From Escherichia coli (GTDB lineage: Bacteria; Pseudomonadota; Gammaproteobacteria; Enterobacterales; Enterobacteriaceae): a stretch of DNA of 64,000 bases. The position numbers were made by a program. This document shows positions 9,401 to 12,400 of this stretch, piece after piece (position 1 is the stretch's first letter; the number at the start of each line of letters is the position of its first letter). Location of the stretch: assembly GCF_041248615.1 (NCBI RefSeq), contig NZ_CP158426.1. One strand, given 5' to 3'.

Positions 9401-12400
9401 TAATGTCATCAGTAATTACGCTGTCATCCAGTTTCGCATAACAGATACTGTCATCACCGGCTTCAATATAACTGGAAAAATTTTCGCTGATAAAACGGTA
9501 GAAAAGTGCGCCCAGAACGTATTGCTTAAAATCCCATCCGTCAACAGAACCTCTGACATCATTGGCAATTTGCCATATCTGGCGGTGCAGTTCTGCTCGT
9601 TGTTGAATACTTGTCATTTTTAATCCATTTTCCTGGTTTGGACCTGAATCATTGAGGGCAATTCTACAGCAATCTTGTGGTTCAGGCAGCCCCGGAGTAA
9701 GTCGGTGTACATTGTGAGATACCTGGGGTATTCACGACAAGGAGGAGGAACGGAATATTGCCTTTCCTTTGCAGTGCACCAGGTGCATTCTAAATAATTT
9801 CAGACAGATATTATCTCCGTGAATCCCCCGCCACCTTTCCGGTGCGCGGGGTTTTGTCTTTTTTCACCGGGAATACATGTATGAATCCGTCTGATGCCAT
9901 TGAGGCAATTGAAAAACCACTTTCTTCCCTGCCTTACTCACTTTCCCGTCACATCCTGGAACATCTGCGCAAACTCACCAGCCACGAACCCGTGATTGGC
10001 ATTATGGGGAAAAGCGGGGCCGGTAAATCCTCACTCTGTAATGCACTGTTTCAGGGGGAGGTCACCCCGGTCAGTGATGTTCACGCCGGCACCCGGGAAG
10101 CGCAGCGCTTCCGTCTGAGTGGCCATGGTCACAGCATGGTTATCACTGACCTGCCCGGGGTGGGCGAGAGCCGGGACAGGGATGCAGAGTATGAAGCCCT
10201 GTACCGTGACATTCTGCCTGAACTTGACCTGGTACTGTGGCTGATTAAAGCCGATGACCGTGCCCTGTCTGTGGATGAGTATTTCTGGCGACACATCCTG
10301 CACCGGGGACATCAGCGGGTACTGTTTGTGGTGACGCAGGCCGATAAAACGGAGCCCTGCCATGAATGGGATATGGCCGGTATTCAGCCTTCTCCCGCAC
10401 AGGCACAGAACATTCGCGAAAAAACGGAGGCGGTATTCCGTCTGTTCCGGCCCGTACATCCGGTTGTGGCCGTATCGGCCCGCACCGGCTGGGAACTGGA
10501 TACGCTGGTCAGTGCGCTCATGACAGCACTTCCCGACCATGCCGCCAGTCCCCTGATGACCCGCCTGCAGGACGAGCTGTGCACGGAATCTGTCCGGGGG
10601 CAGGCCCGTGAACAGTTTACCGGTGCGGTGGACCGGATATTTGACACGGCGGAGAGCGTCTGTGTTGCCTCTGTGGCTCGTACGGTTCTGCGTGCCGTCC
10701 GTGACACGGTGGTCTCTGTTGCCCGCGCTGTATGGAACTGGATTTTCTTCTGAACACTCTGCCAGGGGAAATGCCTGATTACATTGCGTTAACCAACTGA
10801 AAACATGACACAAACACCTCATACCCACCTCTTTCTCTTGCGTGACTGCCTTGCTGTTAATAGAATAAAACGATCGATAAAACAGGTATCGATCGTTGTA
10901 ATCGATCGTTTATGGTGGTTAATGGTCTGCGAAAAGGCAGCTGAATCTCTTCATCATGCAGAACGGAATTGCACACAACGGACTGATACTTCTCTGGCGG
11001 ATGAGAGAGGGGAAGCATTTATGTCCGGGAAAAACCACTTTATCTGACCATGCTGTTTTGTACCTGCCGGTATCCACATTTGTGGGTACCGGCTTTTTTA
11101 TTCACCCTCTGTAAGGAAAAGCTGATGAAACGACATCTGAACACCAGCTACAGGCTGGTATGGAATCACATTACGGGCACCCTGGTGGTGGCTTCCGAAC
11201 TGGCCCGCTCACGGGGAAAACGCGCCGGTGTGGCGGTTGCGCTGTCTCTTGCTGCTGTCACGCCAGTCCCGGCACTGGCTGCTGACACGGTTGTAGAGGC
11301 GGGAGAAACCGTGAACGGCGGAACACTGACAAATCATGACAACCAGATTGTCTTCGGTACGACCAACGGAATGACCATCAGTACCGGGCTGGAGTATGGG
11401 ACGGATAACGAGGCCAATACCGGCGGACAATGGATACAAAATGGCGGTATCGCCAACAACACTACTGTCACCGGTGGTGGTCTTCAGAGAGTGAATGCCG
11501 GAGGAAGCGTTTCAGACACGGTTATCAGTGCCGGAGGCGGACAGAGCCTTCAGGGGCAGGCAGTGAACACCACTCTGAACGGCGGTGAGCAGTGGGTACA
11601 TGAAGGCGGGATTGCAACGGGTACCGTCATTAATGAGAAGGGCTGGCAGGCCGTCAAATCCGGCGCAATGGCAACCGACACGGTTGTGAATACCGGCGCG
11701 GAAGGGGGACCGGATGCAGAAAATGGTGATACCGGGCAGTTTGTTCGCGGAAATGCCGTACGTACCACTATCAATGAAAATGGTCGTCAGATTGTGGCTG
11801 CTGAAGGAACAGCAAATACCACTGTGGTTTATGCCGGCGGCGACCAGACTGTACATGGTCACGCACTGGATACTACGCTGAATGGGGGGTACCAGTATGT
11901 GCACAACGGCGGTACGGCGTCTGACACTGTTGTAAACAGTGACGGCTGGCAGATTATCAAGGAAGGTGGTCTGGCGGATTTCACCACCGTTAACCAGAAA
12001 GGCAAACTGCAGGTGAACGCCGGTGGTACCGCCACACATGTCACCCTGAAACAGGGTGGAGCACTGGTCACCAGTACTGCGGCAACGGTTCTTGGCAGCA
12101 ACCGTCTGGGCAATTTCACGGTGGAAAACGGTAAGGCTGACGGCGTTGTTCTGGAGTCCGGCGGTCGCCTGGATGTACTGGAAGGCCATTCAGCGCAGAA
12201 AACACGGGTGGATGACGGCGGAACCCTGGCAGTGTCTGCCGGTGGTAAGGCAACAGGTGTCACCATGACATCCGGTGGTGCCCTGATTGCAGACAGTGGT
12301 GCCACTGTTGAGGGGACCAATGCCAGCGGTAAGTTCAGTATTGATGGCATATCCGGTCAGGCCAGCGGCCTGCTGCTGGAAAATGGCGGCAGCTTTACGG

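What the first reader, a model, noticed from the sequence alone, without database searches (positions are those of the whole stretch)
10860..11125. Intact Dam/OxyR phase-variation switch upstream of flu
Three GATC sites (10872, 10901, 10914) lie within about 45 bp upstream of the antigen 43 gene, the arrangement that underlies epigenetic ON/OFF switching. The switch therefore looks functional in this island copy.
Basis: partly seen in the sequence, partly recalled or inferred. Interest (0 to 1): 0.45.

Follow-up and report, generated by a model that had tools for sequence, protein, structure and literature searches.

The report
Ordinary intact agn43 Dam/OxyR switch
This is the well-known epigenetic ON/OFF switch of the E. 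coli antigen 43 adhesin gene, with every sequence element intact in this strain, so it is a correct but ordinary observation.

Summary
They span 36 bp and lie 218-253 bp upstream of the Ag43 start codon (11125), not about 45 bp.

Their 19/13-bp spacing and their distance to the -10 hexamer TAGAAT match K-12 agn43 exactly. They fall inside two OxyR half-sites, each 8/10 to consensus and 32 bp apart. This is the only such pair in the 64-kb window.

Ten agn43 alleles of two leader classes keep all of these elements. The variation in the GATC-II/III half-site falls at the unspecified consensus positions.

Downstream is a 253-nt leader matching Rfam IS102 (IsrC in K-12). It ends in a strong intrinsic terminator just before the ribosome-binding site.

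The Ag43 gene is full length, and the source genome (E. coli NRZ14408) encodes intact dam and oxyR. Conservation of the three GATCs across agn43 allele groups is already published, so novelty is nil.

One side observation: the same promoter-operator core precedes non-Ag43 genes in Citrobacter, Enterobacter, Raoultella, Pantoea and Budvicia.

The parts
10838..10843 (+). Putative -35 hexamer TTGCGT, 17-bp spacer to the -10
   Evidence: Read from the sequence. The CTCTTG block covering it is invariant in 12 agn43-linked switches. It matches TTGACA at only 3/6, so the consensus promoter scan did not call it.
10861..10866 (+). -10 hexamer TAGAAT, inside OxyR half-site 1
   Evidence: It lies in the 17-bp block identical to K-12 and is conserved in 11 of 12 agn43-linked switches (TAGGAT in one). 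Its position relative to the K-12 IsrC 5' end is consistent with +1 at 10872.
10860..10874 (+). OxyR half-site 1, ATAGAATAAAACGAT (8/10 to ATAGnTnnnAnCTAT); overlaps the -10 and GATC-I
   Evidence: Motif scan, using the consensus quoted from PMC2909390. Identical sequence in K-12.
10872..10875 (+). GATC-I; its G is the inferred transcription start (+1)
   Evidence: The K-12 isrC annotation starts on the homologous G. The Rfam IS102 match starts at 10870.
10891..10894 (+). GATC-II
   Evidence: It lies 19 bp after GATC-I, as in K-12.
10904..10907 (+). GATC-III
   Evidence: It lies 13 bp after GATC-II, as in K-12.
10892..10906 (+). OxyR half-site 2, ATCGTTGTAATCGAT (8/10); its outer tetrads are built from GATC-II and GATC-III
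   Evidence: Across the 10 agn43 alleles only the unspecified positions 7-9 vary (GTA, ACT, TAT, ACC, AAT). It starts 32 bp after half-site 1, the same as the centre-to-centre spacing of opvAB OxyR half-sites (PMC4856963).
10872..11099 (+). 5' leader / IsrC (IS102)-like RNA, about 228 nt to the end of the terminator T-run. The full untranslated leader to the ATG is 253 nt.
   Evidence: Rfam RF00124 IS102, 71.8 bits (gathering threshold 46), 10870-11106, model 1-206/206. K-12 annotates sRNA IsrC at the homologous place.
11066..11099 (+). Intrinsic terminator: 12-bp stem, 4-nt loop, then T6 (11094-11099)
   Evidence: Terminator scan. Hairpin energy -23.5 kcal/mol. The stem is conserved in 10 alleles: loop bases vary, and one allele (WP4-W18) has a G-to-A change that turns a U.G pair into U-A.
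11113..11117 (+). Shine-Dalgarno AAGGA, 7 nt before the ATG
   Evidence: Read from the sequence. Conserved in all alleles.
11125..13971 (+). Ag43/Cah-family autotransporter adhesin gene (948 aa), the regulated cargo
   Evidence: RefSeq annotation. NCBIfam NF033177 equivalog, 1981 bits, full length.

Best explanation
Window 10838-11124 is the standard regulatory region of an agn43/flu (Ag43/Cah) allele.

A sigma-70 promoter (-35 TTGCGT, -10 TAGAAT) starts transcription at or near the G of GATC-I (10872). A single OxyR operator overlaps the -10 and the first ~35 transcribed bases. It consists of two half-sites, 10860-10874 and 10892-10906, that carry GATC-I, -II and -III.

When the three GATCs are unmethylated, OxyR binds, blocks transcription and shields the sites from Dam; this is the OFF state. 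When Dam has methylated them, OxyR cannot bind and the promoter fires; this is the ON state. After each replication the hemimethylated DNA is open to competition between Dam and OxyR. That competition makes each state heritable but reversible.

ON-state transcripts then cross a 253-nt leader that ends in a strong intrinsic terminator 26 nt before the ATG. A short IsrC-like RNA is therefore made, and Ag43 mRNA requires read-through.

Shown here: all cis elements, their geometry and their conservation; an intact Ag43 gene; and dam and oxyR in the genome. Inferred from K-12 work: binding, methylation states, +1 and switching.
For: - Geometry and -10 distance are identical to K-12.
- The two 8/10 OxyR half-sites 32 bp apart are unique in the 64-kb window and match K-12.
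- Ten agn43 alleles of two leader classes keep the three GATCs. Half-site 2 varies only at unspecified consensus positions.
- The 56-bp core is 75-86% identical between classes, while the 60-bp flanks are 15-37% identical.
- The Rfam IS102 hit and the K-12 isrC annotation start at GATC-I.
- The terminator is strong and conserved.
- Ag43 is full length; dam and oxyR are present.
- The mechanism in K-12 is described in PMC3764049, PMC13337833, PMC4872104 and PMC2909390.
- Leader antitermination is stated in PMC5389530, citing Wallecha 2014.
- Conservation of three GATCs in both agn43 allele groups is already stated in PMC2808357.
Against: - There are no methylation, binding or expression data for this strain or for this exact allele.
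- The 15-bp spacer between GATC-I and GATC-II (GATAAAACAGGTATC) differs from K-12 (AATATCTATTTTATC) at 8 of 15 positions. It lacks the K-12 internal CTAT and the 7/10 auxiliary half-site matches. OxyR affinity and switching rates may therefore differ.
- The -35 is weak (3/6) and the generic promoter scan called nothing.
- The K-12 footprint (-16 to +42) and +1 come from my recollection of the Wallecha et al. 2002 abstract. The paper is not in the held library.
Confidence: 0.88

Rival explanations
1. The switch is genuine, but this allele class behaves quantitatively differently from K-12 (a different ON/OFF bias or rate) because its spacer between the OxyR half-sites is different.
For: The spacer differs at 8 of 15 positions and is less A/T-rich. 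The K-12-type spacer is kept almost unchanged even in Citrobacter and Enterobacter loci whose flanks are unrelated, which hints that the spacer sequence matters. K-12 has extra 7/10 half-site matches in the spacer where the window has only 6/10. In opvAB, single-base changes in OxyR half-sites shift the switch (PMC4856963).
Against: All consensus-specified contacts and the helical phasing are unchanged. The window-type region is the commoner one in E. coli: 3423 of 5426 genomes match at least 80% of it. It is conserved within the class.
Confidence: 0.3
2. The switch mainly gates a short non-coding RNA (IsrC-like). Ag43 output is limited chiefly by the leader terminator, so an intact switch does not by itself predict Ag43 phase variation.
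For: A -23.5 kcal/mol hairpin followed by T6 lies 26 nt before the ATG and is conserved in every allele. There is an Rfam IS102 hit. K-12 annotates the leader as an sRNA. PMC5389530 states that flu expression is controlled by antitermination of IsrC.
Against: In K-12, which has the same terminator, Ag43 is visibly phase-variable (PMC3764049), so read-through is sufficient. This layer adds to the switch and does not replace it. The leader body is not conserved between classes, and only the terminator and one small CCGG hairpin are shared. That argues against a sequence-specific trans-acting sRNA.
Confidence: 0.2
3. The GATC cluster is a chance or merely palindromic feature, or a SeqA-binding cluster, with no OxyR-dependent role.
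For: GATC triples within 32 bp occur at six other places in the window, one of them with 19/12 spacing inside rpoD. The region is rich in CGATCG palindromes.
Against: It has exact K-12 geometry and is the only OxyR half-site pair in 64 kb. These are the only GATCs in 7.3 kb of GATC-depleted DNA. The core is invariant across divergent alleles and genera while the flanks are unrelated.
Confidence: 0.02

Closest known systems
E. coli K-12 agn43 (flu) Dam/OxyR phase-variation switch with its IsrC leader
   Same: Shared features: the -10 TAGAAT; three GATCs at 19/13 bp; the same two 8/10 OxyR half-sites 32 bp apart; a leader ending in a near-identical terminator (one loop base differs); the same SD and start of the Ag43 signal peptide; and the same island context of YeeP-type GTPase upstream and DUF932/antirestriction/RadC/CbtA genes downstream.
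   Different: The spacer between GATC-I and GATC-II, and the leader body from about +36 to +190, are unrelated in sequence. The leader is 253 nt here against 222 nt in K-12. The -35 is TTGCGT against TTGTCC. The protein is the 948-aa Cah-like form against 1039 aa in K-12.
cah (calcium-binding Ag43 homologue) regulatory region of E. coli O157:H7 and other pathotypes
   Same: It has the same leader class (252-253 nt), the same spacer and 91-98% identity over 441 bp. This is the window's own class.
   Different: Only the three unspecified central bases of half-site 2 differ (GTA here; ACT, TAT or ACC elsewhere), plus scattered leader substitutions.
Salmonella gtr (P22, LT2) and opvAB Dam/OxyR switches
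   Same: OxyR half-sites contain GATC pairs 13 bp apart. Methylation blocks OxyR binding, and OxyR blocks Dam. Half-sites are about 32 bp apart (PMC2909390; PMC4856963).
   Different: Those switches have three or four half-sites with alternative occupancy upstream of the promoter, and OxyR also activates. In agn43 there is a single repressor site overlapping the -10 and +1 (PMC2909390).
pap Dam/Lrp switch
   Same: It follows the same heritable logic of competition between methylation and protein binding (PMC13337833).
   Different: The protein is different (Lrp/PapI). There are two GATC boxes 102 bp apart, and the sequence is unrelated (PMC2909390).

Membership tests
agn43-type Dam/OxyR epigenetic switch | [quoted passage not shown] | tested here: met
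   Sites at 10872, 10891 and 10904; K-12 L001 sites at 1318, 1337 and 1350.
agn43-type Dam/OxyR epigenetic switch | An OxyR binding site that contains the GATCs | tested here: met
   Two half-sites at 8/10 each, starting 32 bp apart. Together they overlap all three GATCs (GATC-I by three of its four bases). This is the only such pair in the window and is the same as in K-12. This is a motif test only, with no binding assay.
agn43-type Dam/OxyR epigenetic switch | The operator overlaps a sigma-70 promoter or transcription start, so that OxyR represses | tested here: inconclusive
   The -10 TAGAAT lies inside half-site 1, and the 17-bp block is identical to K-12. The K-12 IsrC 5' end lies on the G of GATC-I. 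The generic promoter scan called nothing because the -35 is 3/6. +1 has not been mapped in this allele.
agn43-type Dam/OxyR epigenetic switch | An intact Ag43-family autotransporter gene downstream | tested here: met
   NF033177, 1981 bits against a cutoff of 1200, residues 1-948/948.
agn43-type Dam/OxyR epigenetic switch | Dam and OxyR encoded in the same genome | tested here: met
   dam at 490211-491047 and oxyR at 5053409-5054326 of NZ_LT599825.1. Both are full length and neither is flagged as a pseudogene.
agn43-type Dam/OxyR epigenetic switch | Alternative methylation states of the GATCs in ON and OFF cells, with heritable reversible switching | not testable with these tools
   This needs methylation-aware sequencing or reporter assays.
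IsrC / IS102 leader RNA (Rfam RF00124) | Covariance-model match above the gathering score, located between the yeeP-like gene and flu | tested here: met
   71.8 bits against 46, full model 1-206, at 10870-11106.
IsrC / IS102 leader RNA (Rfam RF00124) | An intrinsic terminator defines the 3' end | tested here: met
   12-bp stem plus T6, -23.5 kcal/mol, conserved in 10 alleles.

The most novel reading that the evidence does not exclude
The roughly 56-bp promoter-operator core (-10, two OxyR half-sites, three GATCs) may not be an Ag43-specific regulatory region. It may instead be a portable phase-variation cassette that occupies the slot just downstream of the YeeP-family GTPase gene in CP4-44-type islands and can drive different cargo.

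In Citrobacter braakii, C. amalonaticus and Enterobacter wuhouensis the same core precedes two uncharacterised small secreted proteins instead of Ag43. Of its 35 positions not forced by the search pattern, 77% are identical to K-12, while the flanks are at background. The surrounding islands are homologous.

Related three-half-site, four-GATC versions precede membrane and secreted proteins in Raoultella, Pantoea and C. werkmanii. A further version occurs in Budvicia.

If these are functional, Dam/OxyR phase variation extends to unrecognised loci in several genera.
Probability: 0.45. Interest if true: 0.4.

Novelty: already known. Interest (0 to 1): 0.12.

Why it matters
For this window it matters little. 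It confirms that strain NRZ14408 carries a standard Ag43/Cah adhesin gene that is probably phase-variable, which is relevant only to anyone phenotyping aggregation or biofilm in this strain.

The mechanism was worked out in K-12 more than twenty years ago. Conservation of the three GATCs across agn43 allele groups is already in print (PMC2808357).

The only forward-looking value is the side observation. The operator core is a sharply conserved island of sequence that recurs upstream of non-Ag43 genes in other enterobacterial genera. That gives a concrete list of candidate new Dam/OxyR phase-variable loci to test.

Tried and rejected
1. The MAFFT alignments of window against K-12 mis-register the GATC block, pairing window GATC-III with K-12 GATC-II. 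I replaced them with an ungapped anchored alignment.
2. The consensus promoter scan returned no promoter. This is a threshold effect of the 3/6 -35 hexamer and is not evidence of absence.
3. Leader peptide: a 41-codon ORF starts at 10922. I rejected it because the K-12 leader class lacks it and two window-class alleles carry a 1-nt indel inside it.
4. 'The GATC-free zone is a special property of flu that insulates the switch.' The flu coding sequence has 0 GATC against about 6 expected (P=0.0005 under synonymous-codon shuffling), and K-12 flu has 0 against about 8.6. But hsdM, hsdS, the GTPase gene and the right arm of the island are equally depleted; the island as a whole has 24 against 74 expected. 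The depletion is island-wide.
5. 'The switch travels with the 154-aa cargo gene.' Rejected: its 77% and 63% homologues lie in related islands with no GATC triple or OxyR pair. An E. coli homologue of the second cargo gene also lacks it.
6. No conserved leader structure emerged beyond the terminator and one small CCGG hairpin. The whole-leader fold z-score is only -1.97.
7. The primary papers are not in the held library: Wallecha 2002, 2003 and 2014; Kaminska 2010; Henderson & Owen 1999; Casadesus & Low 2006. The K-12 +1 and the -16..+42 footprint are therefore quoted from memory.
8. One search was a wasted literature search, because 'IsrC' matched ISRCTN trial numbers. One search used wrong coordinates and should be ignored.
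9. NCBIfam and Pfam gave nothing for the non-Ag43 cargo proteins.

Full report
**Source and context.**
The window is E. coli NRZ14408 chromosome NZ_LT599825.1, positions 800,001-864,000; the match is 100%. The finding lies in a genomic island of about 17 kb. An IS5-family element and a truncated gntP-family gene bound it on the left, and a tRNA-Ile gene (19124-19199) next to mug and rpoD bounds it on the right.

The island carries, in order:
- a type I restriction-modification system (hsdR, hsdS, hsdM; 3633-9617);
- a YeeP-type GTPase gene (9881-10753);
- an Ag43/Cah autotransporter gene (11125-13971);
- the usual CP4-44-type genes for DUF932, antirestriction, RadC/JAB, YeeU/CbtA and others.

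**The observation.**
GATC occurs at 10872, 10891 and 10904. The cluster spans 36 bp and lies 218-253 bp upstream of the ATG at 11125, not about 45 bp.

GATC is not enriched in the window overall: 240 observed against 239.9 expected. Tight triples occur seven times against 1.5 expected under random placement. Clustering alone therefore proves little.

Three things do discriminate:
- This is the only triple with 19/13-bp spacing.
- These are the only GATCs between 6851 and 14130, with gaps of 4025 and 3227 bp against a mean of 267 bp.
- They coincide with an OxyR motif pair that is unique in the window.

**Comparison with K-12.**
MAFFT mis-registers the block. An ungapped alignment anchored on the shared 17-mer AATAGAATAAAACGATC shows that K-12 MG1655 has GATCs at the same three relative positions. 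It also has the same distance to TAGAAT.

K-12 annotates the sRNA IsrC as starting exactly on the G of GATC-I and ending just before flu. In the window, Rfam's IS102 model (the same RNA) matches 10870-11106 at 71.8 bits, above the gathering score of 46.

From memory of the Wallecha et al. 2002 abstract, K-12 transcription starts at the G of the upstream GATC, and OxyR(C199S) protects -16 to +42. The paper is not held. In window coordinates that region is 10856-10913, which contains everything described below.

**The OxyR site.**
I used the half-site consensus ATAGnTnnnAnCTAT quoted in PMC2909390. The window has two 8/10 half-sites:
- ATAGAATAAAACGAT at 10860-10874, which overlaps the -10 and GATC-I;
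- ATCGTTGTAATCGAT at 10892-10906, whose outer tetrads are formed by GATC-II and GATC-III.

They start 32 bp apart, the same as the centre-to-centre spacing of OxyR half-sites in opvAB (PMC4856963). The summed score of 16/20 at that spacing is the only pair scoring 14 or more in 64 kb. K-12 has the same pair.

**Phylogenetic footprint.**
I compared ten agn43 alleles: K-12, two O157 cah alleles, H10407, UM146, 600055, UC4224, UTAK-6, WP4-W18 and the window. They fall into two leader classes, with 252-253 nt or 222-228 nt from GATC-I to the ATG.

All ten keep the three GATCs at 19/13 bp. Half-site 2 varies only at its unspecified positions 7-9 (GTA, ACT, TAT, ACC, AAT). The invariant blocks are CTCTTG around the -35, TAATAG.ATAAAACGATC, and the two ATCGATCG cores.

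The 56-bp core is 75% identical between the window and K-12. The 60-bp flanks are only 27-37% identical.

The spacer between GATC-I and GATC-II is class-specific: GATAAAACAGGTATC here and AATATCTATTTTATC in K-12.

The published literature already notes that both agn43 allele groups have promoters with three similarly spaced GATCs (PMC2808357).

**The leader.**
From +1 (10872) to the ATG is 253 nt. A 12-bp hairpin followed by T6 lies at 11066-11099 (-23.5 kcal/mol), 26 nt before the ATG and just upstream of the AAGGA Shine-Dalgarno. Its stem is conserved in all ten alleles. Loop bases vary, and one allele has a change that turns a U.G pair into U-A.

Nothing else in the leader is conserved between the classes except a small CCGG hairpin. 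An apparent 41-codon ORF is not conserved.

**Is the switch likely to work here?**
- The cargo gene is full length (NF033177, 1981 bits, 1-948/948).
- The genome encodes dam (490,211-491,047) and oxyR (5,053,409-5,054,326), neither flagged as a pseudogene.
- Intactness is not trivial. Other records show a deletion that removes the promoter and most of agn43 (L011). Another deletion runs from inside the terminator into the distal island genes (L018). In L022, phage DNA is joined at leader position +171.

The mechanism is taken from K-12 (PMC3764049, PMC13337833, PMC4872104, PMC2909390). OxyR bound to unmethylated GATCs represses transcription and blocks Dam. Methylated GATCs exclude OxyR. Replication reopens the competition between the two.

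For this allele that mechanism remains an inference. I put 0.88 on the region being a cis-intact agn43-type switch. I allow about 0.3 that its switching kinetics differ from K-12 because of the spacer.

**Side observations.**
GATC depletion. GATC is depleted about threefold across the whole island: 24 observed against 74 expected. It is absent from flu, the GTPase gene, hsdM and hsdS. K-12 flu also has none. The depletion is therefore a property of the island and not of flu. It does make the three switch sites the only Dam targets in 7.3 kb.

The same operator in other genera. I searched one genome per bacterial species with a 21-specified-base pattern encoding the operator geometry; about 0.1 chance hits are expected. 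It found ten loci outside E. coli, and a search of viral contigs found one more.
- In Citrobacter braakii, C. amalonaticus and Enterobacter wuhouensis, a core nearly identical to the K-12 type sits downstream of a homologous GTPase gene (61% amino-acid identity). It has a good promoter (ATGACA, 17-bp spacer, TAGAAT). It lies upstream of two uncharacterised secreted proteins of 154 and 157 aa, followed by DUF932 (74% identity) and the rest of the island.
- Raoultella, Pantoea stewartii and C. werkmanii carry a version with four GATCs and three half-sites (centres at -47, -5 and +28; scores 9, 9 and 8), resembling opvAB and gtr. Budvicia has another version.
- Homologues of the 154-aa protein elsewhere lack the operator. 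The cassette therefore tracks the position after the GTPase gene, not the cargo.
- One literature search combining OxyR, GATC and phase variation with these genus names returned nothing describing such loci; I did not look further.

**Verdict.**
The feature is a textbook, already-described regulatory region and deserves a low score.

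Noticed in passing
window 11066-11099 (leader 10872-11124): A strong conserved intrinsic terminator lies 26 nt before the Ag43 ATG, and the whole leader matches Rfam IS102 (IsrC). 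The finding did not mention this known second control layer (antitermination).
   Followed up: yes
window 2500-19100, especially 6851-14130: GATC is depleted about threefold across the island (24 observed, 74 expected). There are zero GATCs in flu, the GTPase gene, hsdM and hsdS, and K-12 flu (3.1 kb) also has none. The three switch GATCs are the only Dam sites in 7.3 kb.
   Followed up: partly
L016, L019, L020 (Enterobacter wuhouensis, Citrobacter amalonaticus, C. braakii); e.g. L020 5109-5156 on the minus strand: An agn43-type promoter-operator core sits in a homologous island just after the YeeP-type GTPase gene. Of its positions not forced by the search pattern, 77% are identical to K-12. 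It is followed by two uncharacterised secreted proteins (154 and 157 aa, no Pfam or NCBIfam hit) instead of Ag43.
   Followed up: partly
L012, L013, L017, L021 (C. werkmanii, Pantoea stewartii, Raoultella spp.); L014, L015 (Budvicia): Related operators occur in these genomes. The first group has four GATCs (-54, +1, +20, +33) and three OxyR half-sites (9/10, 9/10, 8/10; centres -47, -5, +28), upstream of small membrane or secreted proteins on other mobile elements. The layout resembles opvAB and gtr. Budvicia has a three-GATC version.
   Followed up: partly
L011, L018, L022 compared with window 10825-13778, 11073-17710 and 11042: Rearranged agn43 loci exist in other records. L011 has lost the promoter and switch plus most of agn43. 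L018 keeps the switch and leader, but a deletion from inside the terminator fuses it to distal island genes. L022 keeps the switch and leader up to +171 and then continues into phage genes.
   Followed up: partly
window 10876-10890: The spacer between GATC-I and GATC-II is class-specific: GATAAAACAGGTATC here against AATATCTATTTTATC in K-12. Together with GATC-I and GATC-II it forms a perfect 8-bp inverted repeat (GATCGATA-N7-TATCGATC). The RNA hairpin is -7.4 kcal/mol here against -2.3 in K-12. Its effect on OxyR binding or on the nascent RNA is unknown.
   Followed up: partly
window 20407, 20426, 20438 (inside rpoD): A GATC triple with 19/12-bp spacing, almost the agn43 geometry, lies within the rpoD coding sequence. 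No OxyR half-site pair scoring 14/20 or better was found anywhere outside the agn43 operator, so it looks like chance.
   Followed up: partly
window 3633-9617: A complete type I restriction-modification system (hsdR, hsdS, hsdM) lies directly upstream of the GTPase-agn43 module in the same island. Its recognition sequence is unknown, as is whether its methylation touches the switch.
   Followed up: no
window 1-3485 and 19124-19199: The left end of the island abuts lutB/lutC (ykgF/ykgG), a truncated gntP-family gene and an IS5-family ISKpn26 element. The right end is at tRNA-Ile next to mug and rpoD. In K-12 these flanks are about 2.9 Mb apart, which suggests an IS-associated rearrangement at the island border.
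   Followed up: no
window 39416-39565 and 43031-43179: Rfam gathering-level hits to a Sib antitoxin RNA and an FMN riboswitch. These are ordinary core-genome features.
   Followed up: no
NZ_LT599825.1, outside the window: Megablast reports a second place in the same chromosome that matches the agn43 regulatory region. I did not locate or inspect it.
   Followed up: no
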